The notes under the pieces were generated by a model, which saw only the letters and a program-made list of their open reading frames with translations, was not told where the DNA came from and ran no database searches. From assembly GCA_902373435.1 (NCBI GenBank), contig CABKMD010000001.1, positions 20,500 through 84,499 of the forward strand: a DNA stretch of 64,000 bases, in the 5' to 3' direction. Made by a program: the position numbers and the translations under genes. Positions 188-36,287 of the stretch are shown in pieces (position 1 is the first letter of the stretch; the number at the start of each line of letters is the position of its first letter). This DNA comes from an uncultured Actinomyces sp. GTDB lineage: Bacteria; Actinomycetota; Actinomycetes; Actinomycetales; Actinomycetaceae.

Positions 188-217
188 TTGACGCTAGCAC
201 CCTTCTACTGTGATAAT
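188..217 (+). promoter_or_regulatory. Candidate sigma-70-like promoter: TTGACG (188-193), 18-nt spacer, GATAAT (212-217). It lies only about 10 nt from ATG 228, implying a very short-leader or leaderless mRNA.
   Basis: Hexamers read directly from the sequence. The AT-rich patch sits immediately 5' of the first signal-peptide codon. Confidence 0.35.
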
Positions 218-227
218 GATTCTCATT

Positions 228-2999: not shown

Positions 3000-3004
3000 T
3001 ACTC

Positions 3005-3055
3005 GTCTATTCCTGAGGTTTTCCTGCTTGACTCAGGAAAACCTCAGGAATAGAC
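3005..3055. terminator. Perfect 22-bp inverted repeat (gtctattcctgaggttttcctg / caggaaaacctcaggaatagac) just after the stop of the surface protein. A weaker hairpin and a T-tract (cttcttttt) follow at 3064-3110.
   Basis: Palindrome read directly. It is placed 5 nt after the stop codon at 2999. Confidence 0.5.
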
Positions 3056-3124
3056 TGACGTTACCAGAACCGGTTCCGCCCGAAAGGGTCCAGGGCCGGT
3101 CTTCTTTTTCACTGCAAAGGTGCA

Positions 3125-4051: not shown

Positions 4052-4068
4052 GCCTCAAGAACCCCACA
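4038..4068. terminator. Bidirectional hairpin (tgtggggttcttgag c ctcaagaaccccaca) shared by the convergent Abi gene and the response-regulator gene.
   Basis: Perfect 15-bp stem overlapping the Abi stop codon. It is located between convergent 3' ends. Confidence 0.5.
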
Positions 4069-4078
4069 TGACCTTTAC

Positions 4079-4549
4079 TTACCGAATTGACTCCATGATT
4101 CGAACTCCGTCGAGGACGGGCATGTAGGGAAGAGGGTCGATTCCAGTCTCAAGCACATAGTCCGTCAGCTGCTCGCGAACAACGTTTCGAAGCGTTTGTG
4201 GATCCCAAGGCTTGGCAATGTAGTAATCCAAACCGGCCTGGTTCAGTGCCTTGATGGTGTCACTTTGATCTGCCTGTCCCGTGACCAACACTGTGCGAGT
4301 CGAACTAAACCTTGGATCCGCAGTGAGCTCAACAAGGAAATCGACACCAGACTTTCCCGGTAGACGATGATCGGAGAGCACCAGTGCAAGCTCATCCCCA
4401 TCCGACTCGATTTCCTCGACAACGCTCCACGCATCGGAGGCGTCTTCTGCCAATTCCAAACGGACGCGACCGTCGAATTCCTCAAGGTCACGTTCTAGCG
4501 CCTGACGAACCTCGGCCTCGTCTTCGAGGGACAAAATGGTCAGCGTCAT
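4079..4549 (-). CDS. Stand-alone response-regulator receiver domain protein (CheY-like, no output domain).
   Basis: Receiver-domain pattern with an acidic pocket and phospho-acceptor Asp in LVLSDHRLPG. There is a 4-bp overlap with the upstream kinase gene. Confidence 0.8.
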   Translation of the reverse strand: MTLTILSLEDEAEVRQALERDLEEFDGRVRLELAEDASDAWSVVEEIESDGDELALVLSDHRLPGKSGVDFLVELTADPRFSSTRTVLVTGQADQSDTIKALNQAGLDYYIAKPWDPQTLRNVVREQLTDYVLETGIDPLPYMPVLDGVRIMESIR

Positions 4550-6648
4550 GATTCCTCCTCGTGAACATGGTGTGCTGGAATAAGGATCCGCATCGTAGTG
4601 GATCCCGGGTGAGAGTCAATGAGTAGTCGCCCATCCAAATCAGCGATGATCGAGTGGACGATGGACATGCCCATTCCCAAGCCGAAGCGCACGCGGCCAG
4701 CCTTTGTTGTGAAATGTGGTTCCATAATACGGTCCAAAACCTCGGGTGCAATACCGGGACCGTTATCGCAGATCTGGACTTCGACCTGATCTCCATCCAT
4801 CGCTACCCGGATGGTAATTCGCGCTTCATCGTGACCGCGCGCGGGAAGGTGAATTCCCGAGGCCGGGCTGGCCTCCGCGCGCGCCTTGAGGTCTGCGGTC
4901 TCGTCCTCGATTGCTTCAGCCGCGTTCACAATGAGATTGGTCCAGACCTGCTGCAATTTGCTGGGGTGAGCCAGGACCGGCTCAACGTCCTCGTATTCGC
5001 AGACGACATCGATCCCGTGAACCCGGTGTGAGGTTAATCGCAGCACGTCATCGATTCCGCGCCGAACATCGACCTCTTTACGTTCGTCGGCATCGGGGCG
5101 CGCGTAGCCCTTCAATGACTGTGTGAGTGCGATGATGCGCTCACCGGATGCTAGGACTGATCGTAGGGAACTTCCCAGTCGAGCTCCTGCCTGGAAGGCA
5201 AGCAGCTGCTTGGGATCATCTGCGAGCTTCTGTGCCTGCTCGCGGTCGCTCAGACCCGCGCGGATCAGCTGCCGAATAACGCTGCGATCGTGAAGGATCG
5301 GTAAGAATTCCTTTTGGAGTTCCCTTTCGCGAGCGGTCGAAAGGGGCGGAAGGTCCATCGCAGAGTTGAGCGCCTTAAGACATGCCTCCGGTTCGGGTGA
5401 ACTGACAACGTCTTTGGTGTCTTCGCGAAGATGCCCGGCCGCCCGTAAAAGGGCAGTGACCGGATTATTGAGCTCGTGGGCGATCCCAGCGCTGAGTTCG
5501 CCGAGCATGGCAAAACGAGCGCCTTCGACAAGCTTTGCGCGCGTTGCACGCAGGTCTTCCAAGGTAGCCGCCAGTTCTTCTTTCTGGCGCTCCAAGTCTT
5601 CGGCCAGCATCGCATTTTCGACGTGAAGGGCCTCGGCGCGCATGAGGCGTCGCGTCAGTGAACGAATTGCCAACGCGGTTAAAACCGTTGAAATTGATGG
5701 ATCTTCTGTCAGAGCGATCTGAAGCTGTTCGGTGGTTAGACGCACCACTGTTGCTTCGCTTGTCGTCAGCGCGGTGAAAAAGGCACTCTCGCCTCGCGCA
5801 AGCGAAATAAGACCAATGAGCGGGCCCGAGGTTGCAAGGTGGGCAAGGACCTCGCCATGGCGTGAGTCGCGGTGGAGGGAAACCGTCCCCTCAAGGACCA
5901 GGTGAACTGCTTCGACTCTGTGGCCCTGCGTCAGCAGGTGAGTTCCCCGCGGAAGAATGATCCGAGGCCGAGGACCCAGAACCCTCTCGACACCTTCAAG
6001 TAATTCGTAGACAACCTGAGCCTCATTGAGATCGAGGCCTTCGAGGATTGGTCCTTGAACCGCAAAAGAAGGTGCACCCTGGATGAGAGCGAGGATCTCA
6101 CCTCCGCAGTACCCGCATTCCTCGAGGTAACGGCGCATGGTTGAATACGCCTGGCCGGACAGCAAAGGTACTGTCCACGGGGAGCGCACGACCGAGGCTA
6201 AATGCCCCGATTCCGTACATACCGCAAGGTCAGTATGAATTTCCTGGTCGCTCACCAGCATCCACTGTGTCGACGCCATGAGAGAGGACGCGCGCGCAGA
6301 TTCGATCAGGGCATCGACATTGGGGACCTCGCTGGTTGCAACTCCCAAGACCACATGGTCATCGTCTCCGAGGTCCTCGAAGAAGGCATCCAGATCGTTG
6401 AGATCCTGGATGCGATCAAAGCAGAGGTTTGGGAAAGACTGCGTGAGATCACGCGTGAGAGGGCCGGCAATCTGGCGGGAATTATCCCCAACTACTAGGA
6501 CGTGAATGTGATAGCCCGCCCGGTGCCCACCACTGCGGACATCGGTTCGCTCAAGAACCTGAGCATCTCCTTGTGCAGGGCCTTGCGTCCACCCGTGAGC
6601 AAGCCCAGGTGCGCTCGCGGAAGAGGCCTCGGCTGGGGGAAAGGACAC
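4546..6648 (-). CDS. Cytoplasmic sensor histidine kinase with an N-terminal domain of unknown type, a cNMP-binding-like (Crp-type) domain, then HisKA (H-box AHELNNP) and a HATPase_c domain. The true start is probably internal to the listed ORF.
   Basis: H-box, N/G-box motifs (NLIVNAAEA, DNGPGI, GLGMGM) are present. No TM segments. The listed ORF begins at GTG right after the transporter stop codon. Confidence 0.75.
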   Translation of the reverse strand: MSFPPAEASSASAPGLAHGWTQGPAQGDAQVLERTDVRSGGHRAGYHIHVLVVGDNSRQIAGPLTRDLTQSFPNLCFDRIQDLNDLDAFFEDLGDDDHVVLGVATSEVPNVDALIESARASSLMASTQWMLVSDQEIHTDLAVCTESGHLASVVRSPWTVPLLSGQAYSTMRRYLEECGYCGGEILALIQGAPSFAVQGPILEGLDLNEAQVVYELLEGVERVLGPRPRIILPRGTHLLTQGHRVEAVHLVLEGTVSLHRDSRHGEVLAHLATSGPLIGLISLARGESAFFTALTTSEATVVRLTTEQLQIALTEDPSISTVLTALAIRSLTRRLMRAEALHVENAMLAEDLERQKEELAATLEDLRATRAKLVEGARFAMLGELSAGIAHELNNPVTALLRAAGHLREDTKDVVSSPEPEACLKALNSAMDLPPLSTARERELQKEFLPILHDRSVIRQLIRAGLSDREQAQKLADDPKQLLAFQAGARLGSSLRSVLASGERIIALTQSLKGYARPDADERKEVDVRRGIDDVLRLTSHRVHGIDVVCEYEDVEPVLAHPSKLQQVWTNLIVNAAEAIEDETADLKARAEASPASGIHLPARGHDEARITIRVAMDGDQVEVQICDNGPGIAPEVLDRIMEPHFTTKAGRVRFGLGMGMSIVHSIIADLDGRLLIDSHPGSTTMRILIPAHHVHEEES

Positions 6649-9581: not shown

Positions 9582-10205
9582 ATGATGGACGCAAACTCTC
9601 AGCCAGAAGTGGGCGTTGGCCCCTGGCTTGGCGGCCCCGAGAACTGGCCGAGCGATGATGTCTACGATCCCCAGCTCCTTGCCGATGGTGATCGGCGCAA
9701 TGTCGAGGACCGCTACCGTTATTGGAAAATGGAGGCGATTATCGCTGATATCGCTGCCCACGCACTTCCCTTTGAGATTGCCATCGAGAATCTGGGACAC
9801 GACTTCAATATCGGCTCAATCGTTCGAAGCGCGAATGCTCTGGGAGTCAGCCGCGTACATATCGTTGGAAGGCGGCGCTGGAATCGGCGTGGCGCAATGG
9901 TCACGGACCGATACCTAGATGTCGTCCACCACAGCGATGTCACGGAATTCGCTGATTCGGTTCGCGAAAGAGGATTGTCGCTGGTTGGCATTGACAATGT
10001 GCCAGGTTCAATTCCGCTGGAAGGTCACCAGCTTCCCGCTCAGGCATGCCTGATATTTGGGGAAGAATCCAGTGGTTTGAGCGAAGAAATGCGCGCGCAG
10101 TGCGGCGAGATCCTCCACATCACGCAGCGCGGTTCGACTCGCTCAATGAACGTGGGCCACGCCGCGGCAATCGCCATGTGGGCGTGGGTGATTCAGCACT
10201 CTTAA
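9582..10205 (+). CDS. TrmH/SpoU-family RNA 2'-O-methyltransferase.
   Basis: SPOUT motifs (IGSIVRSANALGV, LIFGEESSGLS, SMNVGHAAAIAMW). The internal ATG was chosen to avoid overlap with the HAD gene. Confidence 0.75.
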   Translation: MMDANSQPEVGVGPWLGGPENWPSDDVYDPQLLADGDRRNVEDRYRYWKMEAIIADIAAHALPFEIAIENLGHDFNIGSIVRSANALGVSRVHIVGRRRWNRRGAMVTDRYLDVVHHSDVTEFADSVRERGLSLVGIDNVPGSIPLEGHQLPAQACLIFGEESSGLSEEMRAQCGEILHITQRGSTRSMNVGHAAAIAMWAWVIQHS

Positions 10206-10951
10206 GCGCGAGCCAGGGCCTCGGCGGGAAAATCTTGTACGCGGTCGGTAAAGATCCCGCTGACTCCCCATTTCGCGGCTGTGCGTGCATCCTCAAGAGA
10301 ATTGACGGTCCAGGCGTTCACTTCGAAGCCAACGCTCAGCATCTCGCTCACCTCAACCTCGGTCAGCCCTTCCCAAGCGGGATGGATGGCGCTGCATCCA
10401 AGATCGGCAGCCTGACGCCAGGAACCATTAGTGACCTCATCGCGACGGCACAGCCAGGCCAGTGGAAGCTCGGGCATCGCCTGACGGATTGCGCCGAGCA
10501 GTTCGTGGTCGAAGGAAGAAATCAGCAGCCCACTCTTATTTTTGAAGGACTGTAGTGCAACCTCAAGGTTTTCAACCAATGTATCGCGGCGTTTCCCCGC
10601 GGCTCGAGGCTTCAGTTCAATATTGAAGGATGTCTGCGTCGCATTCGCAAAAGACACCACATCGGCCAGCTCAGGAATGCGTTCAAAACGGTAGGTCGGA
10701 GAAAACCATGCACCCGCATCAAGTCGGCGCAGTTCCCCGTAGCCCCAGGAATCCCAAGAACCGGAAGAATTCGTTGTGCGGTCGACCGTATCATCGTGGA
10801 TCACCAACAGCGTCCCATCAGCCATGACGCCCACATCGCATTCGCACCAGCGTGCGCCAATTTCCGAGGCTTTAGCGAAAGCTGCGATCGTATTCTCGGG
10901 CGCTAGGGTCGATGCGCCGCGATGGGCAATAATCTTTGGGAATTCGCTCAT
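10202..10951 (-). CDS. Glycerophosphodiester phosphodiesterase (GDPD/UgpQ family).
   Basis: Contains IIAHRG plus the E..D..H catalytic pattern (ECDV, VIHDD). The aagga RBS sits 8 nt before ATG 10951. Confidence 0.8.
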   Translation of the reverse strand: MSEFPKIIAHRGASTLAPENTIAAFAKASEIGARWCECDVGVMADGTLLVIHDDTVDRTTNSSGSWDSWGYGELRRLDAGAWFSPTYRFERIPELADVVSFANATQTSFNIELKPRAAGKRRDTLVENLEVALQSFKNKSGLLISSFDHELLGAIRQAMPELPLAWLCRRDEVTNGSWRQAADLGCSAIHPAWEGLTEVEVSEMLSVGFEVNAWTVNSLEDARTAAKWGVSGIFTDRVQDFPAEALARA

Positions 10952-11000
10952 TGTTGTATCCTTCATGTCTTCACAACACGTGCCGAGGCCATATAAGGGT

Positions 11001-12422
11001 CTAGAAGTAATCATCGACGGGAATCAATCCAATCCCCGGGACAAATTGCATCTTTGGGCGACCCGGACTCGCTTCGGTCTCGTCCGCTTTCCCGTGCATT
11101 CCGTCAATTCCCGCGCGCTCTTCTTCGCGGCTGAAACCCTCTTCTTCAGTGAGCGTTTCCATCTCCGAGGCCGCCGTGCCTTCGTCAGGTTGGGCCATCA
11201 GCGCAGGATCCAGCAGCATCGCTTCGTCACGCTTGGTCGGAAGAATGCTCTTGACGTAGGACTCAATCGCCTCATCTTGGGGGATATCGCGCCCGGCTTC
11301 TTCGGCCAAATACCAGCGGTGTTCAAGGAATTCGTGGAAGATCTGTGCGGGTTCAAGCTTCGCAGCAAGTTCGGCGGGAACAGCGCTGATGACGGGTTCG
11401 AAAACTTCGTTCATCCACTCGTGCGCAACGATTTCCAGTGGGGTCTTGTTCTTCCCGGTCATTGCACGGTAGGTCTCGATGTCATTGAGCATTCGCTGCG
11501 CCTGATTTTCGCCAACATCCATACCGGTCAAGCGCATGAGCTTTCGGTGATGGTGGCCGGCGTCGACGACCTTCGGGGTGATGATTATGTGGGTACCATC
11601 AAGATCCGAGGACATTTGAAGTTCTCCGACCTCGAAGCCCAGGTCATTGAGACGGCGGATACGTTGAGCAACACGCCATTTTTGGTTGGTTTCGATGACT
11701 TCAGGGCCCGTGAGTTCATTCCAGAGCTCAAGGTAGCGTGAACGAATGCGGTCGCCAACTTCGATGGGGTCTTCTTCGCTGGGGAAGAAAGAACCGGCCT
11801 GCAGGTCCATGAGTTCGCCGATGATGTTGGTGCGCGCAAGATCAACGTCGTATAGGCGCTGTCCTTCGGTTAGGGAAGGATGGATTTCACCGGTTTCTGC
11901 GTCGACGAGGTAGGCAGAAAATGATCCGGCATCGCGCCTGAATAGGGTGTTCGACAGTGAAACATCGCCCCAATAGAAGCCCAGAAGATGGAGGCGAACA
12001 AGAAGGACAGCCAAAGCATCAATTAAGCGTCCCGCGGTGTCTGGCGTCATGTGCTGCGAGAAGACCGCGCGGTAGGGAAGAGAGAACTGAAGGTGTTCGG
12101 TAACCAGCACAGCCGCAAGTTCTTCACCAAAGGCATCGCGTCGCCCGGTGATGACTGCAGTGGGGAGGACGGAAGGTGCACCTAGACGCGACAGATTTCG
12201 AAGGAGCTCATATTCGCGGTATGCGACGCTTTCGCCGATTTCCTTGACCGCGATGACCCTGTCGGAAAGGTTGACGAAACGGACGACGTGGCGAGAGATG
12301 CCGCGAGGAAGAGCAGCAAGGATCTCCGTCGGCCAGTCTTCAAGGGGGATATCCCAAGGTAAGTCCAACAGTGCGGGGTCAACCGTCGCTGCTGTGATCT
12401 CAAGCGTTGAGGGAATGGGCAT
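11001..12422 (-). CDS. Conserved actinobacterial kinase-fold protein (Kdo/WaaP lipopolysaccharide-kinase-like N-terminus with a DUF4032-like C-terminal region).
   Basis: Long GC-rich ORF with an N-terminal protein-kinase-like segment. The assignment is from memory of the family architecture. Confidence 0.5.
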   Translation of the reverse strand: MPIPSTLEITAATVDPALLDLPWDIPLEDWPTEILAALPRGISRHVVRFVNLSDRVIAVKEIGESVAYREYELLRNLSRLGAPSVLPTAVITGRRDAFGEELAAVLVTEHLQFSLPYRAVFSQHMTPDTAGRLIDALAVLLVRLHLLGFYWGDVSLSNTLFRRDAGSFSAYLVDAETGEIHPSLTEGQRLYDVDLARTNIIGELMDLQAGSFFPSEEDPIEVGDRIRSRYLELWNELTGPEVIETNQKWRVAQRIRRLNDLGFEVGELQMSSDLDGTHIIITPKVVDAGHHHRKLMRLTGMDVGENQAQRMLNDIETYRAMTGKNKTPLEIVAHEWMNEVFEPVISAVPAELAAKLEPAQIFHEFLEHRWYLAEEAGRDIPQDEAIESYVKSILPTKRDEAMLLDPALMAQPDEGTAASEMETLTEEEGFSREEERAGIDGMHGKADETEASPGRPKMQFVPGIGLIPVDDYF

Positions 12423-17612: not shown

Positions 17613-17826
17613 AAAATGAATTCGGCCATCGTTGTGCCCCAAAAATATTGAGTCAGAAGCGGGACGTGACTTTGGAGCGTGCTCTAGCGAGCCTATGTGA
17701 GTGCGGCAGCCTCTCGAAGGTTGTGGGGTCTGCTGTATGCGTTGGAATCTTGTTTCCCAATACCCCCAGGGGTATTCTTGGAGGAGGCAAAGAAGACATT
17801 CCACCGAGCCAGAAAGCGAGCGGCAC

Positions 17827-19509
17827 GTGCGAGTTGTAGTTGTCGGAGGAGTCGCGGGTGGTATGAGTGCGGCGGCACGTCTGCGCAGACGCGATGAGGG
17901 TGCCGAGATCATCGTGTTGGAGCGCAGCAAATACGTGTCATTCGCGAACTGCGGGCTCCCGTACTACGTTGGCGGCGAGATCGAAGACCCCGCCAGGCTC
18001 CTCCTCCACACCCCGCAATCTCTCAAGGCTGCGCTGAACCTCGACGTGCGCATCAACTCCGAGGTCACGGCGATCAACCCCGGCGCGCACAGCCTCCAGG
18101 TCACTGACACTGAGACCGCTGAGGCCTACGCGCTCACCTACGATTACCTAATCCTCTCCCCGGGCGGCCTCGCGAGCCTGCCCCCAATCGACGGCCTCGA
18201 TTCCCCGCGCGTGCACACGCTGCGCACGGTTGACGATGCCCTCGCCCTGCGCGAGGCCTCGGGCACGCACGCCGTTGTCCTCGGCGCCGGGTTCATCGGC
18301 ATCGAGGCCACCGAAGCGCTCGCACAGCGAGGCTTCGAAACCCACCTTGTCGAGTGTGCCGAGCACGTCCTGCCACCCCTCGAAGTCGAGATGGCCACGC
18401 TGGTCACGCAGGAGCTGCGCGCTCTTGGCATTCACGTTCACGCCGGCGTTGCGGCCCAGTCCGTCATCCACGGCGTCGACAACGACTCTGTGACGCTCTC
18501 CGACGGCACCGTCCTGACCACCGATGTCATCGTCCTGTCGACCGGTGTGTGCCCTGACACCGCCTTCGCCGAGGCCGCGGGCATCGAGACCAGCCGCGGC
18601 TACATCCTTGTTGATGAGCATGGGCGTACCAGCGTGGACGACATCTACGCGGTCGGCGACGGCACGATGGGTCGCGACCACGACCGCCCCGTCGCCCTGG
18701 CCGGACCCGCAAACCGCGGGGGACGCCTCGTCGCTGACGCTATTGCCGACGCCGAACAAGGCGAGGCCGCCGCGCGCCCCATCCCGAAGCCTCAGGGCAC
18801 CGCGATCGTTCGGATCGGCGGACTTACCGCCGCCATGACCGGCGCTAACCGCCAGGCCCTCGATGCCTCGGGCGCGGAGTACTTTACGGTGCACACGCAC
18901 GCTAACCAGCACGCGGGCTATTTCCCCGGCGCCAAGCCCGTGCACATCCTCATGCATGTCGGCACCGGCGGACAGATTCTCGGCGCGCAAGCCGTGGGCA
19001 CCGACGGTGTGGACCGCCGCATCGACGTCATTGCGACCGCCATGCGGGCCGGCCTGAAGGCGACGGATCTCATCGACCTGGACCTCGCCTACGCCCCGCC
19101 CTACGGCCAGGCCAAGGACCCCGTCAACCAGACCGGAATGGTCGCGCACAACGTGCTGACCGGCGAGCTCGTCCTCACCGGTCCGGACGCCCTGACCGTG
19201 GACATGCCAGTCCTCGACGTACGCACGGTGGGGGAATACGTGGCCGGGCACATGCCGAACTCCCTGAACATTCCGCACACCCAGCTGCGCGACCGCCTCG
19301 ATGAAGTCCGCTCTTGGGTCGATGAGAAGGTCGGAGACCAGCCTTTCGTTGTCATGTGCGCGGCGGGCGTGCGCTCTTGGATTGGCTACCGCATCGTGCG
19401 CCACGCGGGCTTTAACGTCACCATGCTGTCGGGCGGCATTCAGACGCTGCGCGCATGGCTCGGAGAGAAGGCCGAGGCCGTTCTCGTCATGGGGGAGGGG
19501 CGCTCATGA
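17827..19509 (+). CDS. CoA-disulfide reductase with a C-terminal rhodanese domain (CoADR-RHD, a CoA-persulfide-reductase type).
   Basis: Rossmann motif VVVVGGVAGG, CoADR redox Cys in SFANCGLPYY, and a C-terminal rhodanese with active Cys in CAAGVRS. GTG 17827 was chosen so the protein begins at the FAD-binding motif. Confidence 0.8.
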   Translation: MRVVVVGGVAGGMSAAARLRRRDEGAEIIVLERSKYVSFANCGLPYYVGGEIEDPARLLLHTPQSLKAALNLDVRINSEVTAINPGAHSLQVTDTETAEAYALTYDYLILSPGGLASLPPIDGLDSPRVHTLRTVDDALALREASGTHAVVLGAGFIGIEATEALAQRGFETHLVECAEHVLPPLEVEMATLVTQELRALGIHVHAGVAAQSVIHGVDNDSVTLSDGTVLTTDVIVLSTGVCPDTAFAEAAGIETSRGYILVDEHGRTSVDDIYAVGDGTMGRDHDRPVALAGPANRGGRLVADAIADAEQGEAAARPIPKPQGTAIVRIGGLTAAMTGANRQALDASGAEYFTVHTHANQHAGYFPGAKPVHILMHVGTGGQILGAQAVGTDGVDRRIDVIATAMRAGLKATDLIDLDLAYAPPYGQAKDPVNQTGMVAHNVLTGELVLTGPDALTVDMPVLDVRTVGEYVAGHMPNSLNIPHTQLRDRLDEVRSWVDEKVGDQPFVVMCAAGVRSWIGYRIVRHAGFNVTMLSGGIQTLRAWLGEKAEAVLVMGEGRS

Positions 19510-19811
19510 CGACGCGCAAGCAGGTTGTCAATCGCCTCAAGCGTGCTCGCGGGCAGCTCGACAGCCTCATCGACCACATCGAGAGTGGAGATGCGAACTG
19601 TCGGGACGTGCTGACTCAATTCGCGGCCGTTAACTCCGCGATGAAACGCGCTAGCTACCTCGCGGTTGCGACGATCATGTCGCAGTGCGCGATCGAGGAT
19701 TCCATCCTCGAAAACGATGATGCGCCGACACCCGAAGCGGAAGAATCTCTAGTCAAAACCGGGAGCATCTCGATCGAAGAACTCGAGCAATTGTTCCTCC
19801 GGCTAGGCTGA
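19506..19811 (+). CDS. CsoR/RcnR/CstR-family (DUF156) transcriptional repressor. The two-Cys pattern without the CsoR His suggests a persulfide-sensing CstR-like member rather than a Cu sensor.
   Basis: Four-helix-bundle family signature RLKRARGQLDSLIDHIESGDANCRDVLTQ. Cys residues sit in ANCRD and SQCAIE. The ATG overlaps the upstream TGA (ATGA). Confidence 0.8.
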   Translation: MTTRKQVVNRLKRARGQLDSLIDHIESGDANCRDVLTQFAAVNSAMKRASYLAVATIMSQCAIEDSILENDDAPTPEAEESLVKTGSISIEELEQLFLRLG

Positions 19812-20250: not shown

Positions 20251-23200
20251 ATGCATCATCAACACACTCGAGTGCGTTCTGCCTCGATTCGAAAGCTATT
20301 TCTTACCGCTTTGCTCACCGGCGCGCTTGTGTGCGGAACAGGTTTAGCTCCAGCTCTAGCAGAGCCGGCCTCTCCCACTCCCTCTTCCGAGGCCTCGGCG
20401 ACCACAGGAGCAGAAGCGTCCCAGGAAGCTCACGGAGTGGAAGCACCCCAGTCGACCAGCGAGGCCTCTCCTCTGCCGTCCGCCCCCAGCGGTCAGGACC
20501 GGGCGGCTCGCGGAGCGGCTGCCTCGTCGGATATGACCCTGACCAATGAACGCAATACGACGGATGTTGTCATTGAACTTCCCGAGGGCGAAGCTGGCAA
20601 AGAACTCCGCGAGAGTGCGGATACCGTGCACCTGCGCGCAACCATGAGCTACCGCGGGAAAGTGACGCGTGAAATTGATCAGCGGATCTCATTGAAGGAC
20701 TTCACTGACGACTACTACATTCTCGACTTCAAGAACTTTGGGAAGTTCACTGTCGAACTTTCGACCGAGAAAAACGGGGCGGTAGTCCGTAAATTCCCAA
20801 AGCGTACAGTCGGCGTGACCGCGGATAGCTACGTGCTTGCTCCAGTCAGTGCGACACTTCCCGTTGCGATGTTTTCGCTGAACCTTTGGGGTAAGGATTC
20901 AGTTCGGAAAATCGGCCCTGTCATCGCCATGTTCGAGCGTCCCAATGCTTATGACTGGAATGCGCTGCCCGGCCCAACTGCTGAAGAGCATGGAGTTTAT
21001 GCGCTTCCTTACCTGACTGAGCGTGAGAACGCGTTCCAGCCAGGCGGTTTCGACGAGGCCGCGCAGCAGTTCCGTGATCGCATCGACGTTTTTGCTGATT
21101 ACGTGCGTGATTTGCGTGAGTTGGATCCTTCTTCTGATTTCCACCTCTACTCGGTCGATATGTTCCCCAATATGGTCCAGAAGGTCATCTACGCGAATCG
21201 GATCCCTCAAGACCAATACACGATCAATCTCATGACCGATGGGGCGTATTCCTACGTGAAGTTTGCCGATCTCTATCAGGGATCAAACCCGCGAGGAACG
21301 CACGAGCGCTTGCTTCGTGAGTGGAAAGAAATGAAGGAACACGCCTACGCCAATGGGCGTGCTGATGCGAAGGCCTCCGAGCAGTGGAGCACAGCTGACT
21401 ATTTGTGGGCACTGGTCGATTCTGAGCCGAATGCGCACTGGTGGCTGGCTCGCCCGAAGCTTTTGAGTACTTCGGGAGATGGGAATGCTTTTGCAACCCA
21501 GGTTCAAAAGTCGCCGAAGGTTCGCGGCGTTAATATCTCTCAGCTGCTGAGCGCGAATATCAAGCCCTCGAAGGAAGCGACCGAGCAGTTTAAGGCCCTC
21601 TATAACTTCAACGATGGGTACTTCAGTGCCGCGGAACGTGAGGGCAAGGACGTCCTTCTGCTTCTTGGAACGATTCATCCCAATGAACAGGGCTTCGAAG
21701 ACTATGCCCGCTTTACGAAGAGCTACTACGGGGATCGCTACGCCTACTACTACAAGGGGCACCCAGCGACGCCCACGGAAATGTCAGTTCCCAAGCAAGA
21801 ACAACTCAAGCGTCTGGGAATGGATGATGTCGATGCCTCCATTGCGGCGGAATTGATTCTGTTCTTTAACCCGGGAATTGATATTGCCGGTTATCAGTCC
21901 TCAACTTTTGAGTCGACCCAGCCTGGGCGCTCGAAGGGAGTGTTTAACTACACCAAGGGTGAAGCTATGGCTAAGGCCGATTCGCCCTACCGTGACCTCG
22001 ACTTCTGGATCGTCCCGATCGATCGGGCGTGGGACCAGCTGAAGCGCTTGTGTCCAGGTGGACACAGCTGCTACCAGGTGGAGTTCTCTGACCAGATTGC
22101 CGCGCGCGAAGGTTATACACACGCGCTGTGGGATGCCACTGATTCTGTCATCGTCTACTACAAGAAACAGGGGGATCGTTTCGAGAAGGTCCGCAGTCAA
22201 GATGCGATTGGTGAAAAGTCCTCGGTAGAGCCGGGGGAGTACTTCATTAAGTCAGCGCTCGCGGATCACCTGGTTCTGGATGTTCCCGGTGCTAGCCGTG
22301 ATAATGGCGCGAATGTCCAGCTGTGGGACGCGAATCGAAGCGATGCCCAGAAGTGGCGTGTTTCTTATGATTCGCAAGGACTTGCGACCATCACCAATGT
22401 GGCCTCGGGTAAGGTGCTTGATGCCCAATGGGGGTCCTCGCGTCCTGGGACCAACGTTGACCAGTGGAGTTCTAACGGTACGCGCGCGCAGAAGTGGCGC
22501 ATCACTTCGGACGATCAGGGCCGAGTGAAGATCGTCTCCGCTTTGGATCCCGCAATCGTTTTGGATGTTGCAGCGGCCAATGCTTCAGCGGGAGCGAATG
22601 TCGGCCTGTGGAATGCAAATGGCTCTGATGCTCAGGCATTTTCATTCATTCCGACTCATCCCAAGGTTTCCTCCGCGGGTCAGGCAGATATCACCCCCGG
22701 TTACTACGAGCTAGCAAGCGTCGTTGATCCCACGAAGGGGATCGATCTGAAAGACTTCGCGATGAACAACGGGGCTCGGCTTCAGCTGTGGGGTTCAAGC
22801 AAGACCGATAATCAGATCTGGAAAATTAGCCGTGAATCTGATGGCTTCTACCGATTGGTGAATACCTGGTCGAATAAGTCCTTGGATTCCACTGATGGCA
22901 CTCCGATTCCCGGTACTGAGCTCCAGTTGTGGGACACGGACATGTCCAATGCGAACCAGAAGTGGGCAATCTTCTCGGTGACGGGAGGGGCGTATATGCT
23001 CCGCAACGTCGGGACCGGTCTGGTTGTCAATCTTCGCTGGGGACAGGCGCGTAATGGTATGGCTATTGACGGCTACCTGGCCAATGGAACAACCTCTCAG
23101 CAGTGGCGTCTGAACCCGGTTCAAGGGCCCCAAGAGATCCTGGATCAGTGGGCGAAGGAAAACCGCAACTTGGTTCCTGATGGTGAGTATCAGATCCGTC

Positions 23201-23601
23201 CGGTTGTCGCCCCGAATAATCGTGTCGAGGTCCAATGGGCATCTCGGGACGCGGGAGCTCGCGTCTGGTCTTTCCAGTCCAACGGAAGTGCGGCACAGAA
23301 GTGGCGTATCAGTCACGACGACAAGGGCTACGTGACCTTGACCAACGTGGCTTCTGGGAAAGTCTTGGATGTCTTCGCGGCGTGGAAGAACTGGCCGGCT
23401 CGGGTCAATCAGCAGCCCTCGAACTCCTCCGCGGCTCAAAAGTGGGTCATCCAAGAGCGAGGCGGCCATAAAGTTCTTGTTTCGGCACTCTCGCCCATGT
23501 TGGTCCTTGATCTTGAAGGTGGGCGTAGCCAGAACGAAACAACGGTTCACCTCTATCAGGACAATGGAAGTTCGGCCCAGCGCTTTGATTTCCTGAAGTA
23601 G
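20251..23601 (+). CDS. Secreted multidomain protein. It has a signal peptide, a GT80-like bacterial sialyltransferase / trans-sialidase-like domain, and four ricin-B (QxW)3 beta-trefoil lectin repeats.
   Basis: Signal peptide LFLTALLTGALVCGTGLAPALA. Sialyltransferase signature motifs are INLMTDGAYSYV (D/E-D/E-G-type) and YYKGHP (HP motif). There are repeated ...QLWD.N.S.AQKWR... ricin-B modules from about aa 700. GC is lower than in core genes. Confidence 0.7.
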   Translation: MHHQHTRVRSASIRKLFLTALLTGALVCGTGLAPALAEPASPTPSSEASATTGAEASQEAHGVEAPQSTSEASPLPSAPSGQDRAARGAAASSDMTLTNERNTTDVVIELPEGEAGKELRESADTVHLRATMSYRGKVTREIDQRISLKDFTDDYYILDFKNFGKFTVELSTEKNGAVVRKFPKRTVGVTADSYVLAPVSATLPVAMFSLNLWGKDSVRKIGPVIAMFERPNAYDWNALPGPTAEEHGVYALPYLTERENAFQPGGFDEAAQQFRDRIDVFADYVRDLRELDPSSDFHLYSVDMFPNMVQKVIYANRIPQDQYTINLMTDGAYSYVKFADLYQGSNPRGTHERLLREWKEMKEHAYANGRADAKASEQWSTADYLWALVDSEPNAHWWLARPKLLSTSGDGNAFATQVQKSPKVRGVNISQLLSANIKPSKEATEQFKALYNFNDGYFSAAEREGKDVLLLLGTIHPNEQGFEDYARFTKSYYGDRYAYYYKGHPATPTEMSVPKQEQLKRLGMDDVDASIAAELILFFNPGIDIAGYQSSTFESTQPGRSKGVFNYTKGEAMAKADSPYRDLDFWIVPIDRAWDQLKRLCPGGHSCYQVEFSDQIAAREGYTHALWDATDSVIVYYKKQGDRFEKVRSQDAIGEKSSVEPGEYFIKSALADHLVLDVPGASRDNGANVQLWDANRSDAQKWRVSYDSQGLATITNVASGKVLDAQWGSSRPGTNVDQWSSNGTRAQKWRITSDDQGRVKIVSALDPAIVLDVAAANASAGANVGLWNANGSDAQAFSFIPTHPKVSSAGQADITPGYYELASVVDPTKGIDLKDFAMNNGARLQLWGSSKTDNQIWKISRESDGFYRLVNTWSNKSLDSTDGTPIPGTELQLWDTDMSNANQKWAIFSVTGGAYMLRNVGTGLVVNLRWGQARNGMAIDGYLANGTTSQQWRLNPVQGPQEILDQWAKENRNLVPDGEYQIRPVVAPNNRVEVQWASRDAGARVWSFQSNGSAAQKWRISHDDKGYVTLTNVASGKVLDVFAAWKNWPARVNQQPSNSSAAQKWVIQERGGHKVLVSALSPMLVLDLEGGRSQNETTVHLYQDNGSSAQRFDFLK

Positions 23602-23690
23602 TCAGCTGCTCAGCCAAAAGATTGGGGTGCGTTCGCGTCACTATGCGCGAGCGCACCCCTGTTCGTTGTACGTATCCCGAGCGACGAGGC

Positions 23691-25474: not shown

Positions 25475-28951
<3,477 letters not shown>

Positions 28952-28966
28952 TAGGGAGAGATAACT

Positions 28967-32869
<3,903 letters not shown>

Positions 32870-33335: not shown

Positions 33336-36287
33336 ATGCTTTCCATCAACTGGTCTGATGTGTGGAAGATGGTTGAGTCGATCAAGGTGCCCTTGATCGT
33401 CATTGGCGTGGCGCTGGCGCTCGCCATCATCGTCTCCCTCGCTGTTTTCAAGATGGGCAAGCCTGCCCGCAAGCTGACGCGCTCGACGGCCTGGATCGCG
33501 GCGCTCGTCGCGGTCGTCGTGGCCGTCGTGTCGATGATGTACGGCGGCTTCAAGACGGTGCTCGACCTGGCGGCCGGCACCGGCGCCCTCACGGATGCGT
33601 CAAAGGCCCAGGTCGAGGATCTGGGCAACGACATTTCTGACGAGGGCATGGTCCTCCTGAAAAATCAGGGCGGTGCCCTGCCTCTTGCCAAGGGCTCCGC
33701 GATCAACGTGTGGGGATGGGGTTCGACGAACCCGATCTACGGCGGCACCGGCTCCGGCTCGCTGTCGAAGGACAACCCGACGACGACCCTGCTTGATGGC
33801 CTGCACAACGTCGGCTTTGCCACGAACGACGAGCTGACGAACCTATACACCTCCTACCGCGCTGAGCGTCCCGAGGTCGGCATGTTCAAGGCCGACTGGT
33901 CGCTGCCCGAGCCCACGCAGGACAAGTACTCTGACGACCTGCTCTCCAACGCCACCTCCTTCGGTGACACTGCGGTCGTGACGATCGCCCGCTCGGGCGG
34001 CGAGGGCTTCGACCTGCCGCGCAACGTCAACCAGGAGATGGCGGACAACCCGTACTTCAGCTACACGAACAACTCCGAGGAATACACGGACTTCGAGGAC
34101 GGCCAGGGCTACCTCGAGCTGACGCGTCCCGAAAAGGACATGATTGAGCTGGCGAAGAAGACCTCGGACAAGACGATTGTCGTCATTAATGCCGCCAACG
34201 CCTTCCAGCTGGGCGACCTCCAGGACGACCCGGAGATCGACGCGATCGTGTGGGCGATCCCCGGCGGCCAGGTTGGATTCAACGCGCTGGGGCGCATCCT
34301 GGACGGCGAGGTTAACCCCTCGGCCAAGACCCCCGACACCTTCCCGCGTGACATCAAGGCTGGCCCCGCGGCCAACAACTTCGGCGACTTCCAGTACATG
34401 AACATGACGGAGTTCGCCCAGGACGACCCCTTCAACAAGGGCACCCAGACGCAGCCGTCCTTCGTCAACTACAACGACTCGATCTACGTCGGCTACCGCT
34501 GGTACGAGACGGCCGCCGCTGAGGGCGTCATCGACTACAGCAACGAGGTCGTCTACCCCTTCGGCTATGGCCTGTCCTACACGACGTTCTCCCAGTCGAT
34601 GAGCGACATCTCGGTCGACGAGGCCACGGGTGCCATGTCCGCGGACGTGACCGTCACTAACACGGGCCAGGGCGCCGGTAAGGACATCGTCCAGATCTAC
34701 GACAACCCGCCCTACACGGACGGTGGCATCGAAAAGGCTTCCGCGAACCTGCTGTCGTACGAGAAGACGAAGCTGCTGGGGCCCGGTGAATCCCAGACGC
34801 TGACGGTCACCTGGAACCGCGATTCACTTGCCTCCTACGACGCGGTCAATGCCAAGGCATACGTGCTCGAGGCTGGCGACTACAAGATCTCCGCGCGTAC
34901 CAACTCGCACGACGTCATCGACGAGAAAGCGTACACGGTGGATGCGACGCAGACATTCAATACCGCCGACAACACGCACGACGGTGACAAGGTCGTGGCC
35001 ACCAACCAGTTCGACGACGCGAAGGGGGACATCACCTACCTGTCGCGCGCGGGCCGCTTTGCCAACCTCGCGGAGGCGACTGCAGCCCCCACGAACTTTG
35101 AGATGAGCGAGGCCAACAAGGCGAAGTTCCTCGCGACGTCGAACTACGACGCGGCAGCCGCCGACGCTGACGCCAGCGCGACGATGCCCAACACGGGCGC
35201 CAAGAACGGCCTTGTCCTGGGTGATCTCGCTGGCCTCGATTACGACGATCCGAAGTGGGACCAGCTTCTCGACCAGCTGACCGTCAAGGACATGAACACC
35301 CTCGTCTCCAAGGGTGGCTACGGCTCCCCGGCGATCTCCTCGATCGGCAAGCTGCGCGTCTCCGACGTGGACGGCCCCGCCTCGCTAAACAACAACTTCA
35401 CGGGTGTCGGCTCGATCGGCCTGCCCTCCGCCGTGTCCGTTGCGGCCACCTTCAACAAGGAGCTCGCGCGTTCCTTCGGTGACGCGATCGGCACGATGGC
35501 GCACGACATGCAGGTCTCTGGCTGGTACGCGCCGGCCACGAACACGCACCGCTACGCCTACGCGGGCCGTAACTTCGAGTACTTCTCGGAGGACCCGGTC
35601 CTGGCCGGCTCGCAGGTCGCCGAGGAAATTAAGGGTGCCCAGGCGAAGGGTGTGTACGCCTTCCTCAAGCACTTCGCGCTTAACGATCAGGAAACGAACC
35701 GCACGCACATGCTGGCGACCTGGACGAACGAGCAGGCGATGCGCGAGATCTACCTGCGTCCCTTCGAGATCGGCGTCAAGGACGGCGGTGCACACGCGAT
35801 TATGAGCGCGTTCAACTACATCGGCCCTCAGTACGCGGGTGCAAACTCTGCGCTGCTGAATACTGTCCTGCGCGACGAGTGGGGCTTCCGCGGCATGGTC
35901 CTCACCGACTACTTCGCGGGCTATGGCTACCAGAACGCGGACCAGATTACGCGTCACGGTGGTGACATGATGCTGGCCACGCTCGACATGCCGATCGCAA
36001 CGGTCAACGTGCAGGATGCAACGGGCGTGAGCTCTCTGCGACGCGCATCGCACAACATCCTGTACACGGTCGCGAACTCGTGGATCTATGAGAACGGCCA
36101 GCCCGAGGTCACCCGCAATGCGTGGGAGTACATCACCTGGGTGGTGGCAGGCGCAGCGATCCTGGCGCTGCTCGGACTTGAGCTGGTCGCGATCCGTCGC
36201 TACCGCGCTCGAAAGGCTGAGGCTGTGATTACCGTCGAGCCCAACGCTTCGATCGGCGAGGCCGGGGCTGAGAAGGCGGACGAGTGA
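33336..36287 (+). CDS. Glycoside hydrolase family 3 (beta-glucosidase/beta-N-acetylhexosaminidase-related) with an N-terminal membrane anchor. Its domain order appears permuted.
   Basis: N-terminal TM helix. GH3 (alpha/beta)-sandwich-like region (LLKNQGGALPL) precedes the GH3 barrel signature LKHFALNDQETNR and GFRGMVLTD. Confidence 0.8.
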   Translation: MLSINWSDVWKMVESIKVPLIVIGVALALAIIVSLAVFKMGKPARKLTRSTAWIAALVAVVVAVVSMMYGGFKTVLDLAAGTGALTDASKAQVEDLGNDISDEGMVLLKNQGGALPLAKGSAINVWGWGSTNPIYGGTGSGSLSKDNPTTTLLDGLHNVGFATNDELTNLYTSYRAERPEVGMFKADWSLPEPTQDKYSDDLLSNATSFGDTAVVTIARSGGEGFDLPRNVNQEMADNPYFSYTNNSEEYTDFEDGQGYLELTRPEKDMIELAKKTSDKTIVVINAANAFQLGDLQDDPEIDAIVWAIPGGQVGFNALGRILDGEVNPSAKTPDTFPRDIKAGPAANNFGDFQYMNMTEFAQDDPFNKGTQTQPSFVNYNDSIYVGYRWYETAAAEGVIDYSNEVVYPFGYGLSYTTFSQSMSDISVDEATGAMSADVTVTNTGQGAGKDIVQIYDNPPYTDGGIEKASANLLSYEKTKLLGPGESQTLTVTWNRDSLASYDAVNAKAYVLEAGDYKISARTNSHDVIDEKAYTVDATQTFNTADNTHDGDKVVATNQFDDAKGDITYLSRAGRFANLAEATAAPTNFEMSEANKAKFLATSNYDAAAADADASATMPNTGAKNGLVLGDLAGLDYDDPKWDQLLDQLTVKDMNTLVSKGGYGSPAISSIGKLRVSDVDGPASLNNNFTGVGSIGLPSAVSVAATFNKELARSFGDAIGTMAHDMQVSGWYAPATNTHRYAYAGRNFEYFSEDPVLAGSQVAEEIKGAQAKGVYAFLKHFALNDQETNRTHMLATWTNEQAMREIYLRPFEIGVKDGGAHAIMSAFNYIGPQYAGANSALLNTVLRDEWGFRGMVLTDYFAGYGYQNADQITRHGGDMMLATLDMPIATVNVQDATGVSSLRRASHNILYTVANSWIYENGQPEVTRNAWEYITWVVAGAAILALLGLELVAIRRYRARKAEAVITVEPNASIGEAGAEKADE

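What the first reader, a model, noticed from the sequence alone, without database searches (positions are those of the whole stretch)
20251..23601. Secreted sialyltransferase-like (GT80-type) domain fused to four ricin-B lectin repeats
The roughly 1117-aa protein has a classical signal peptide, so it is exported. Its N-terminal half contains the two short signature motifs shared by bacterial sialyltransferase families GT38/52/80. The first is a D/E-D/E-G-type motif, seen here as INLMTDGAYSYV; from memory, compare Pasteurella PmST1 LNLYDDGSMEYV. The second is the HP motif, seen here as YYKGHP; compare YFKGHP. A Rossmann-like LLLLGTI segment is also present. The C-terminal half is four tandem (QxW)3 beta-trefoil lectin modules, each with QLWD...AQKWR. 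Characterised bacterial sialyltransferases are cytoplasmic or inner-membrane enzymes acting on LOS or capsule. An extracellular, lectin-tethered GT80-like enzyme would be a new architecture. GT80 enzymes such as PmST1 also show sialidase and trans-sialidase activity. Tethering via Gal/GalNAc-binding lectin domains could therefore mean a surface trans-sialidase or sialoglycan-remodelling enzyme acting on host glycans. The gene lies in a lower-GC stretch that also contains other accessory genes.
Basis: partly seen in the sequence, partly recalled or inferred. Interest (0 to 1): 0.8.

Follow-up and report, generated by a model that had tools for sequence, protein, structure and literature searches.

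The report
Exported wall-anchored GT80-like sialyltransferase homologue
This gene encodes a secreted protein, probably anchored to the cell wall, whose enzyme half is a previously unannotated relative of bacterial GT80 sialyltransferases with the catalytic and CMP-binding residues intact; it belongs to a large uncharacterised family in Gram-positive, mostly gut, bacteria whose substrate is still unknown.

Summary

Three points need correcting. The lectin part is three beta-trefoils, not four. Export is not new for this fold, because classical GT80 enzymes carry Sec or lipoprotein signals. The ricin repeats are probably a cell-wall anchor rather than a host lectin. Orthologues swap them for ChW, choline-binding, SLH or other wall-binding modules. 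In 9 of 14 contexts the gene lies among wall-glycopolymer genes or wall proteins, five of these with neighbours carrying the same anchor.

The family is large (485 clusters at 50% identity), and every source name seen says only 'hypothetical', 'RICIN domain-containing' or something equally uninformative. Donor, acceptor and physiological reaction are not established.

The parts
20251..23601 (+). Complete CDS, 1116 aa plus stop codon; a stand-alone gene about 440 bp downstream of a CsoR-like gene and convergent with udg
   Evidence: orthologues of 1116 aa
20251..20361 (+). Sec-type signal peptide (aa 1-37; predicted cleavage ALA|EP)
   Evidence: Read from the sequence; helix 11-27 in the model; 158 of 188 Met-starting family proteins have a comparable N-terminal hydrophobic segment. 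No SignalP run.
20362..20532 (+). Low-complexity Pro/Ser/Ala/Glu-rich linker (aa 38-94), predicted disordered
   Evidence: pLDDT below 50 for residues 29-91
20533..20820 (+). N-terminal beta-sandwich (Ig-like) domain, aa ~95-190
   Evidence: Strands 96-189 at pLDDT above 90. The arrangement parallels the Ig-like domain in front of the Photobacterium GT80 enzymes (PF22352). Homology of this domain was not shown.
20821..21567 (+). GT-B N-terminal Rossmann-like domain (aa ~191-439) with invariant R230 and D303 and the catalytic-base motif
21235..21243 (+). T329-D330-G331, aligned with PmST1 D140-D141-G142 (D141 is the catalytic base)
   Evidence: D330 and G331 invariant; role of D141 from PMC5517516
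21568..21990 (+). GT-B C-terminal (nucleotide-binding) Rossmann domain, aa ~440-580, including G473-T474 (= PmST1 G266-T267)
21754..21765 (+). K502-G503-H504-P505 HP motif (= PmST1 K309-G310-H311-P312)
   Evidence: invariant; role of H311 from PMC5517516
21850..21852 (+). E534, aligned with PmST1 E338 (the Glu that binds the CMP ribose hydroxyls)
   Evidence: invariant; role from PMC7540698 and PMC5517516
21898..21903 (+). S550-S551, aligned with the PmST1 S355-S356 phosphate-binding 'SS' motif
   Evidence: motif described in PMC7540698
21991..22215 (+). Conserved small beta-rich C-terminal subdomain of the catalytic module (aa ~581-655; YxVEFSD ... WDAT ... YYK)
   Evidence: Strands 585-651 at pLDDT above 90; conserved columns
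22234..22653 (+). Ricin-type beta-trefoil 1 (aa 662-801)
22699..23121 (+). Ricin-type beta-trefoil 2 (aa 817-957)
23182..23595 (+). Ricin-type beta-trefoil 3 (aa 978-1115)
23624..23659 (.). GC-rich hairpin (15-bp stem) between the gene and the convergent udg gene; probably a bidirectional terminator
   Evidence: consensus scan only

Best explanation
Shown. The gene encodes a protein with a Sec-type signal, a disordered linker and an Ig-like domain. These are followed by a two-Rossmann GT-B catalytic module that is a divergent homologue of GT80 sialyltransferases, and then by three ricin-type beta-trefoils. The catalytic module keeps the GT80 general base (D330 = PmST1 D141) and the HP-motif histidine that stabilises the CMP phosphate leaving group (H504 = H311). 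It also keeps the whole CMP cradle: K502, E534 and S550/S551 correspond to K309, E338 and S355/S356. It belongs to a large unannotated family of Actinomycetota and Bacillota. The family's members carry interchangeable Gram-positive surface-anchoring modules, or a single N-terminal membrane anchor.

Inferred. The enzyme works outside the membrane, held on the bacterium's own wall by the trefoils. It uses GT80 chemistry: inverting transfer of a CMP-linked 2-keto-3-deoxy acid sugar (sialic acid or a related nonulosonic or ulosonic acid) to a glycan hydroxyl activated by D330. It could also run the reverse reaction. CMP-sugars are scarce outside cells. The physiological reaction is therefore most likely either use of scavenged CMP-sialic acid, or CMP-catalysed reverse transfer. 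The latter would give sialidase or trans-sialidase behaviour, as documented for GT80 enzymes. The acceptor would be a surface glycan, plausibly the cell's own wall glycopolymer.

The sugar, donor and acceptor are not established.

For: Sequence homology. hhalign of the family (52 sequences) against GT80 (17 sequences) gives probability 96.6%, E 5.2e-10 over 320 columns spanning both domains, with the catalytic and CMP residues in register. The narrower alignment gives 94.2%, E 1e-7. A home-built GT80 HMM picks up many family members in the same register. Pfam PF11477 and PF07388 hit 4 and 7 of 52 members weakly.

Conservation. G164, R230, D303, D330, G331, G473, K502, H504, P505, E534 and G547 are invariant at 22-48% identity. 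The roles of the matching residues in GT80 and GT38 enzymes are given in PMC5517516 and PMC7540698.

Extracellular location. The evidence is the signal peptide, 158 of 188 family members with N-terminal signal or anchor segments, and fusions to ricin, ChW, choline-binding, SLH, LRR_5, Flg_new and Big_2 modules.

Wall association. In 9 of 14 contexts the gene lies in or beside wall-glycopolymer loci or clusters of wall proteins.

Precedents. Reverse-transfer sialidase and trans-sialidase activity is documented for GT80 (PMC7540698). Surface sialyltransferase activity using scavenged CMP-Neu5Ac is documented for gonococcal Lst (PMC11413452, PMC11364026).
Against: - No enzymatic evidence exists for any family member.
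- The protein itself scores on no Pfam, NCBIfam or PDB sequence profile.
- The first acidic residue of the D/E-D/E-G motif is Thr or Ser here. The acceptor-side residues of PmST1 (T268, W270, E271, R313) are not conserved, so acceptor and possibly sugar specificity differ.
- The HP motif is shared with beta-Kdo transferases (PMC5517516), so the sugar need not be sialic acid.
- No CMP-sialic acid synthesis, sialic acid catabolism or transport genes were seen near the gene in 14 contexts. Two loci instead encode IspD/TarI-like cytidylyltransferases.
- No extracellular source of CMP-sugars is known for gut commensals. Direct CMP-Neu5Ac scavenging has been reported only for N. gonorrhoeae (PMC11364026).
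- Residue-level geometry in the model could not be inspected, because no coordinates were available.
Confidence: 0.5

Rival explanations
1. One reading: a secreted enzyme tethered to HOST Gal/GalNAc glycans by its ricin lectins, acting as a sialidase, trans-sialidase or sialoglycan remodeller on host mucins or cells.
For: GT80 homology with an intact active site. GT80 enzymes have sialidase and trans-sialidase side activities (PMC7540698). Close relatives come from human-associated Actinomyces/Pauljensenia, Collinsella and Olsenella. The ricin trefoils resemble sugar-binding HA33 and MTX domains. One homologue lies 3 kb from a SASA (sialate O-acetylesterase family) gene.
Against: Orthologous catalytic domains carry ChW, choline-binding, SLH and other bacterial wall-binding modules in place of ricin. 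In ricin-using genomes the neighbouring glucosaminidase, S8 peptidase and CotH proteins carry the same ricin repeats, which fits a generic wall anchor. No nan or sialic acid transport genes lie nearby in 14 contexts. The PmST1 residues tied to acceptor binding are not conserved.
Confidence: 0.2
2. A wall-glycopolymer processing enzyme unrelated to sialic acid. The GT80-like scaffold would be used outside the cell to transfer, trim or re-link units of the bacterium's own secondary wall polymer (galactofuranan or teichoic-acid-like). The old CMP pocket would hold a phosphodiester or polyol-phosphate, or a polyprenyl-phosphate-linked donor.
Confidence: 0.25
3. A catalytically dead scaffold or adhesin: the GT80-like module only binds glycans.
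For: No activity is known. The first acidic residue of the D/E-D/E-G motif is lost.
Against: The catalytic Asp, the HP-motif His, the ribose-binding Glu, the Lys and the Ser pair are invariant or nearly so across members of 22-48% identity. This is the pattern expected of an active enzyme.
Confidence: 0.04
4. Chance motif resemblance: the N-terminal half is unrelated to sialyltransferases.
For: There is no Pfam, NCBIfam or PDB-sequence hit for this protein. hhalign against the single PmST1 sequence was only borderline (27% probability).
Confidence: 0.01

Closest known systems
CAZy GT80 bacterial sialyltransferases (Pasteurella multocida PmST1/Pm0188; Photobacterium alpha2,3- and alpha2,6-sialyltransferases; PDB 2ex0/2ilv, 2zwi, 4r83, 2z4t; Pfam PF11477)
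   Different: 12-15% sequence identity, and this protein gives no PF11477 hit. The motif is T/S-D-G instead of D-D-G. The acceptor-side residues T268, W270, E271 and R313 are not conserved. There is an extra C-terminal beta subdomain. Hosts are Gram-positive. Wall-anchoring repeats (here three ricin trefoils) are present, which GT80 lacks. Activity is unknown.
GT38 polysialyltransferases (Mannheimia haemolytica PST, PDB 5wc6; Pfam PF07388) and GT52 Lst
   Same: They share the HP motif, the D/E-D/E-G-type base loop and the CMP-binding Glu and Ser/Thr (PMC5517516). Seven of 52 family members give weak PF07388 hits. Gonococcal Lst is a surface-exposed enzyme that uses scavenged CMP-Neu5Ac.
Modular cell-wall-anchored surface enzymes of Gram-positive bacteria (choline-binding proteins, ChW proteins, SLH proteins; review PMC5817068)
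   Same: An N-terminal signal and a catalytic module joined to a repeat array that holds the protein on a wall polymer. The anchor modules are interchangeable between orthologues. The genes cluster with autolysins and wall-polymer loci.
   Different: Known cargo domains are hydrolases, peptidases and adhesins. No GT-B or sialyltransferase-like cargo turned up in my literature searches.
Ricin-B / CBM13 multi-trefoil lectins (botulinum HA33, Lysinibacillus MTX holotoxin, Streptomyces xylanase and arabinofuranosidase CBM13)
   Same: (QxW)3 beta-trefoils: PF14200 and PF00652, with Foldseek E as low as 7e-32.
   Different: Here there are three tandem trefoils acting as the C-terminal module of a GT-like enzyme. 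The ligand is unknown and is probably a bacterial wall glycan rather than Gal/GalNAc.

Membership tests
GT80 sialyltransferase (CAZy GT80 / Pfam PF11477) | GT-B fold closest to solved GT80 structures | tested here: met
GT80 sialyltransferase (CAZy GT80 / Pfam PF11477) | Significant match to the family sequence profile (PF11477 at or above its gathering score) | tested here: not met
   No PF11477 hit for this protein even at E <= 1. Only 4 of 52 family members hit, weakly (E ~2e-5). Homology is detectable only profile-to-profile.
GT80 sialyltransferase (CAZy GT80 / Pfam PF11477) | YDDGS / D/E-D/E-G motif carrying the catalytic base (PmST1 D141) | tested here: inconclusive
   D330-G331 align with D141-G142 and are invariant. 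The preceding acidic residue (D140) is Thr/Ser, and S143 is Ala or variable.
GT80 sialyltransferase (CAZy GT80 / Pfam PF11477) | FKGHP (HP) motif: the His that stabilises the CMP leaving group | tested here: met
   Y501-K502-G503-H504-P505 align with F308-K309-G310-H311-P312. K, H and P are invariant.
GT80 sialyltransferase (CAZy GT80 / Pfam PF11477) | CMP cradle: ribose-binding Glu (E338) and the SS phosphate motif (S355/S356) | tested here: met
   E534 aligns with E338 and S550/S551 with S355/S356. E534 is invariant.
GT80 sialyltransferase (CAZy GT80 / Pfam PF11477) | Transfers Neu5Ac from CMP-Neu5Ac to Gal/GalNAc acceptors | not testable with these tools
   This needs an enzyme assay. The acceptor-side residues of PmST1 (W270, E271, R313) are not conserved.
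Ricin-type beta-trefoil lectin (PF00652 / PF14200, CBM13-like) | (QxW)3 sub-repeats forming a beta-trefoil, with a significant profile match | tested here: met
   PF14200 E 7.5e-66 and PF00652 E 1.1e-34. Nine QxW/QxF motifs. AF2 model at pLDDT 94 with three 12-strand units. Foldseek to MTX and HA33.
Ricin-type beta-trefoil lectin (PF00652 / PF14200, CBM13-like) | Binds Gal/GalNAc-type sugars | not testable with these tools
   No binding data exist. Context suggests a bacterial wall glycan as ligand.
Sec-exported, non-covalently wall-anchored Gram-positive surface protein | N-terminal signal peptide | tested here: inconclusive
   The n-, h- and c-regions with an AxA site were read from the sequence. 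A hydrophobicity heuristic is positive for 158 of 188 relatives. No dedicated predictor was available.
Sec-exported, non-covalently wall-anchored Gram-positive surface protein | Repeat module exchangeable with recognised wall-binding modules in orthologues | tested here: met
   The same catalytic domain is fused to ricin, choline-binding (PF19127/PF01473), ChW (PF07538), SLH, LRR_5 or Flg_new modules.

The most novel reading that the evidence does not exclude
These proteins form a large, overlooked family of extracellular GT-fold enzymes. They would let Gram-positive gut and oral bacteria carry out nucleotide-sugar-sparing trans-sialylation (or transfer of another ulosonic acid) at the cell surface. 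Tightly bound or catalytic CMP would serve to move sialic acid from host sialoglycans onto the bacterium's own wall polysaccharide. That would be a physiological, GT80-based bacterial trans-sialidase and a route to host mimicry in commensals such as Collinsella and Actinomyces.
Probability: 0.15. Interest if true: 0.85.

Novelty: new variant of a known kind. Interest (0 to 1): 0.62.

Why it matters
The GT80 enzymes recovered here are all from Gram-negative gamma-proteobacteria, and to my knowledge their natural roles are poorly understood. This result shows a much larger sister family (485 clusters at 50% identity). Its members sit in Actinomycetota and Bacillota, including abundant human gut genera such as Collinsella, Olsenella and Actinomyces/Pauljensenia. 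They are displayed on the cell wall and keep an intact CMP site and catalytic dyad. If active, these would be Leloir-type glycosyltransferase-fold enzymes working outside a Gram-positive cell. That raises a concrete, testable question: where does the donor come from? Candidates are scavenged CMP-sialic acid, reverse transfer from host sialosides, or an activated linkage in the wall polymer. The answer could reveal a new way for commensals to edit their own or host surface glycans. It could also supply new biocatalysts for sialoside synthesis. Finally, the family deserves a profile and a name in Pfam and CAZy.

Tried and rejected
- Direct sequence annotation failed. Pfam and NCBIfam see only the ricin part. 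phmmer and a family HMM against PDB sequences gave no GT hit.
- hhalign of the narrow family alignment against the single PmST1 sequence was only borderline (27% probability, E 6.5e-4). It became convincing only with broader alignments on both sides.
I then verified it against PDB 2ex0/2ilv (one mismatch, corrected).
- The AFDB50 fold library was not available.
- No relatives were found in viral contigs, and the locus has no match in plasmids. A mobile-element origin is therefore not supported, despite the atypical GC3.
- Seven full-text literature searches found no paper on a Gram-positive, wall-anchored or ricin/ChW/choline-binding-fused GT80-like protein.
- I looked for sialic acid pathway neighbours (neuA/B/C, nanA/K/E, transporters) and found none in 14 contexts. 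Only one SASA-family gene turned up, near one homologue.
- I considered and rejected a lipoprotein signal: ALVC is a poor lipobox, and an AxA site follows.
- I considered and rejected the longer TTG start at 20149, because orthologues are 1116 aa.
- I could not inspect model coordinates. The distance between D330 and H504 and their position in the cleft were therefore not measured.
Full report
**1. The observation**

A single long ORF occupies 20251-23601 on the + strand (ATG to TAG, 1116 aa). A TTG 102 nt upstream would extend it, but about 30 near-identical database proteins are all 1116 aa.

The N-terminus (MHHQHTRVRSASIRK / LFLTALLTGALVCGTGLAPALA / EP...) has the three regions of a Sec signal peptide, and a predicted disordered Pro/Ser/Ala-rich linker follows (pLDDT below 50 for residues 29-91).

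Pfam and NCBIfam recognise only the C-terminal ricin-type lectin region (PF14200 E 7.5e-66, PF00652 E 1e-34). Nothing is recognised in aa 1-655. That region contains nine QxW/QxF sub-repeats. An AlphaFold model of aa 652-1116 (pLDDT 94.4) shows three, not four, beta-trefoils, at aa 662-801, 817-957 and 978-1115. Its best structural matches are multi-trefoil lectins such as MTX and HA33.

The gene is low in GC (0.555; GC3 0.62) compared with the ribosomal and RNA-polymerase region to its right (0.636; rpoB GC3 0.88). It stands alone, about 440 bp downstream of a CsoR-like repressor gene. A 15-bp GC-rich hairpin at 23624-23659 separates it from the convergent udg gene.

**2. What the N-terminal half is**

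Sequence methods on the protein alone fail. phmmer against PDB sequences and a 17-sequence family HMM both give no glycosyltransferase hit. Structure and profile-profile methods are decisive.

- The AlphaFold model of aa 1-660, built on a 28-sequence alignment, has pLDDT 84.3 and pTM 0.77, with over 90 across most of aa 95-655.
- Foldseek against the PDB returns GT80 sialyltransferases as its seven best hits: Photobacterium damselae 4r83 at E 5.9e-13, and PmST1 and P. dagmatis at 4e-11 to 8e-10.

For residue-level evidence I verified the PmST1 sequence against PDB 2ex0/2ilv. I then collected 17 GT80 proteins (alignment A4) and compared them with a 52-member alignment of the new family (A3). 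hhalign gives probability 96.6% and E 5.2e-10 over 320 columns spanning both Rossmann domains. The narrower alignment A2 gives 94.2% and E 1e-7.

| This protein | PmST1 | Known role in PmST1 |
|---|---|---|
| T329-D330-G331 | D140-D141-G142 | D141 is the catalytic base |
| G473-T474 | G266-T267 | not assigned here |
| K502-G503-H504-P505 | K309-G310-H311-P312 | HP motif |
| E534 | E338 | binds the CMP ribose hydroxyls |
| S550-S551 | S355-S356 | phosphate-binding SS motif |
| R230 | R63 | not assigned here |

The roles of these residues are documented in PMC5517516 and PMC7540698: Asp as base, His stabilising the CMP phosphate, Glu binding the ribose hydroxyls, Lys contacting the cytosine, and Ser/Ser(Thr) on the phosphate. 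G164, R230, D303, D330, G331, G473, K502, H504, P505, E534 and G547 are invariant across members that share only 22-48% identity. This is the signature of an active enzyme with a nucleotide site.

There are differences from GT80. The first acidic residue of the D/E-D/E-G motif is Thr/Ser. PmST1 T268, W270, E271 and R313 on the acceptor side are not conserved. A conserved beta-rich subdomain (aa ~581-655) follows the GT-B module. An Ig-like beta-sandwich (aa ~95-190) precedes it, which echoes the Photobacterium enzymes, but I did not show that the two are homologous.

**3. The family**

- The catalytic domain defines a large family. An exhaustive profile search of 1.84 billion representatives gives 485 clusters at E <= 1e-3 and 223 at E <= 1e-30.
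- Every source name seen is uninformative: 'hypothetical protein', 'RICIN domain-containing protein', 'uncharacterized protein YjdB', or, for one partial Collinsella entry, 'helix-turn-helix domain-containing protein'.
- A few members weakly touch PF11477 (GT80) or PF07388 (GT38).
- Genomes that carry it include Pauljensenia / 'Actinomyces sp. ph3' (98-99% identity, so the window comes from this lineage of Actinomycetaceae), other gut Actinomyces, Olsenella, many Collinsella aerofaciens strains, Drancourtella, Erysipelotrichaceae, Eggerthellaceae, Propionibacteriaceae and Clostridia MAGs.
- The catalytic domain is joined to different modules in different lineages: ricin trefoils, choline-binding repeats, ChW repeats, SLH, BspA-type LRR, Flg_new or Big_2. 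Some members have only an N-terminal signal, lipobox or membrane anchor. Several of these (choline-binding, ChW, SLH) are recognised Gram-positive wall-binding modules (PMC5817068).
- By a simple heuristic, 158 of 188 Met-starting members have an N-terminal hydrophobic segment preceded by Lys or Arg.

I conclude that the family is extracytoplasmic.

**4. Surroundings**

In the window and in Actinomyces marseillensis the gene sits next to udg and rpoBC. The upstream flank varies: CoA-disulfide reductase plus CsoR here, and a SIR2-HerA pair there. This is uninformative.

Elsewhere the picture is consistent. In 9 of 14 contexts examined, the gene is inside or beside cell-wall glycopolymer loci or clusters of wall proteins. 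The loci contain:

- multiple GT2 genes, UDP-galactopyranose mutase and GlfT2-like genes;
- LicD and a LicC-type choline kinase/cytidylyltransferase;
- TarI/J-like IspD genes and a TagF-like Glyphos_transf gene;
- ABC-2 exporters, GtrA+GT2+DUF2142/DUF6020/DUF6541 sets and Acyl_transf_3.

The immediate neighbours in five of these loci are wall proteins that carry the same anchor repeat: a ricin-glucosaminidase, a ricin-S8 peptidase, ricin-CotH, ChW-GH25, ChW-YkuD, ChW-NlpC/P60 and a choline-binding protein. The other five contexts are housekeeping (and the window). No neuA/B/C, nan or sialic acid transport gene was seen in any context. One homologue lies 3 kb from a SASA-family gene.

This pattern, together with the anchor swapping, makes it more likely that the ricin trefoils hold the enzyme on the bacterium's own wall glycan than that they target host Gal/GalNAc. 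That is an inference.

**5. How it most likely works**

Shown: the protein is an exported, modular protein whose catalytic module is a GT80 homologue with the base, the HP-motif histidine and the CMP cradle intact.

Inferred: it performs GT80-type chemistry at the cell surface. D330 would deprotonate an acceptor hydroxyl (or water). H504 and S550/S551 would stabilise a CMP phosphate leaving group. K502 and E534 would hold the nucleotide. The sugar would be a CMP-activated 2-keto-3-deoxy acid.

The HP motif also occurs in Kdo transferases (PMC5517516), so sialic acid is the leading candidate but not the only one. Nucleotide sugars are scarce outside cells, which leaves two plausible modes:
- donor scavenging, for which the only precedent is gonococcal Lst (PMC11413452, PMC11364026);
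- CMP-catalysed reverse transfer, giving sialidase or trans-sialidase behaviour, as documented for GT80 enzymes (PMC7540698).

I put about 0.5 on this class of mechanism. The main rival (about 0.25) is that the scaffold has been re-used for processing the cell's own wall polymer, with a phosphodiester- or polyprenyl-phosphate-linked donor. This fits the gene neighbourhoods but not the invariant ribose- and cytosine-binding residues.

**6. Comparison with what is known, and novelty**

The protein works like, and is homologous to, GT80. It fails the operational membership test (a PF11477 profile hit) and lacks part of the YDDGS motif. I therefore file it as a new sister family or variant rather than a GT80 member.

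PmST1 has a Sec signal (MKNRRLNFKLFFLNIFSLFSTPSWS|K), and the Photobacterium, Shewanella and Aeromonas GT80s have lipoboxes (PMC7540698).

Three things are new: the Gram-positive host range, the fusion to wall-anchoring repeats, and the existence of a large unannotated family. Seven literature searches found no description of such proteins.

**7. Verdict**

- The GT80-like interpretation is supported.
- The host-lectin and trans-sialidase parts remain open and are partly contradicted by context.
- Novelty: a new variant of a known kind.
- Interest: 0.62. It is not a solved mechanism, but it is a well-founded and directly testable lead on extracellular GT-fold enzymes in abundant gut bacteria.

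Noticed in passing
window 25475-32869 (+) and 27161-32386 (-): rpoB (1158 aa) and rpoC (1300 aa) lie here. The 1741-aa ORF on the opposite strand, and other long antisense ORFs, have no Pfam hits. They look like the spurious open frames typical of high-GC DNA.
   Followed up: partly
window 33336-36287 (+): A 983-aa GH3 glycosidase has its domains in permuted order: GH3_C and Fn3-like come before the GH3 N-terminal domain.
   Followed up: no
window 1-4100: This is the lowest-GC stretch of the window (0.49 at 3-4 kb). It holds an Abi_2 abortive-infection-like gene (3125-4051) and a 929-aa ORF with no Pfam match (210-2999). It may be a defence or mobile islet.
   Followed up: no
window 17701-19811 (+): A CoA-disulfide-reductase-like pyridine nucleotide-disulfide oxidoreductase fused to a rhodanese domain overlaps a CsoR-type metal-sensing repressor gene. 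The local GC is 0.68, much higher than in the flanks.
   Followed up: no
L015 6139-9475 (Actinomyces marseillensis): The orthologue (69% identity) keeps its udg-rpoB side, but its upstream flank is a SIR2_2 plus HerA/DUF87 pair (a defence-system-like pair) in place of the CoADR/CsoR genes. The left border of the gene is therefore a variable region.
   Followed up: partly
proteins P0222-P0248 (classical GT80): Most of the 11 classical GT80 sialyltransferases sampled have a Sec signal (Pasteurellaceae) or a lipoprotein lipobox (Photobacterium, Shewanella, Aeromonas). GT80 enzymes therefore appear mostly exported, which leaves open where their CMP-sialic acid donor comes from.
   Followed up: partly
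L082 13337-16744; L084 4787-9924; L024 34-9140: In Olsenella-like, Coriobacteriia and Collinsella genomes, whole sets of surface enzymes (CotH kinase-like, glucosaminidase, S8 peptidase, GH25, L,D-transpeptidase) carry the same ricin or ChW repeat arrays. They sit next to Galf- or teichoic-type wall-polymer loci. Ricin trefoils may be a general wall anchor in Coriobacteriia and Actinomyces.
   Followed up: partly
L089 1764-3125: One anchor-less family member (P0125, 575 aa) lies 3 kb from a SASA (sialate O-acetylesterase family, PF03629) gene and next to a gene for a protein of more than 8500 aa. This is the only sialic-acid-related neighbour seen.
   Followed up: no
window 4549-6648 (-) and 11004-12422 (-): Two unusual signalling or kinase-like genes lie here: a 700-aa protein with cNMP-binding and HATPase_c domains, and a DUF4032 protein with a Kdo/WaaP-kinase-like domain. 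They sit beside a GDPD glycerophosphodiesterase (10205-11014).
   Followed up: no
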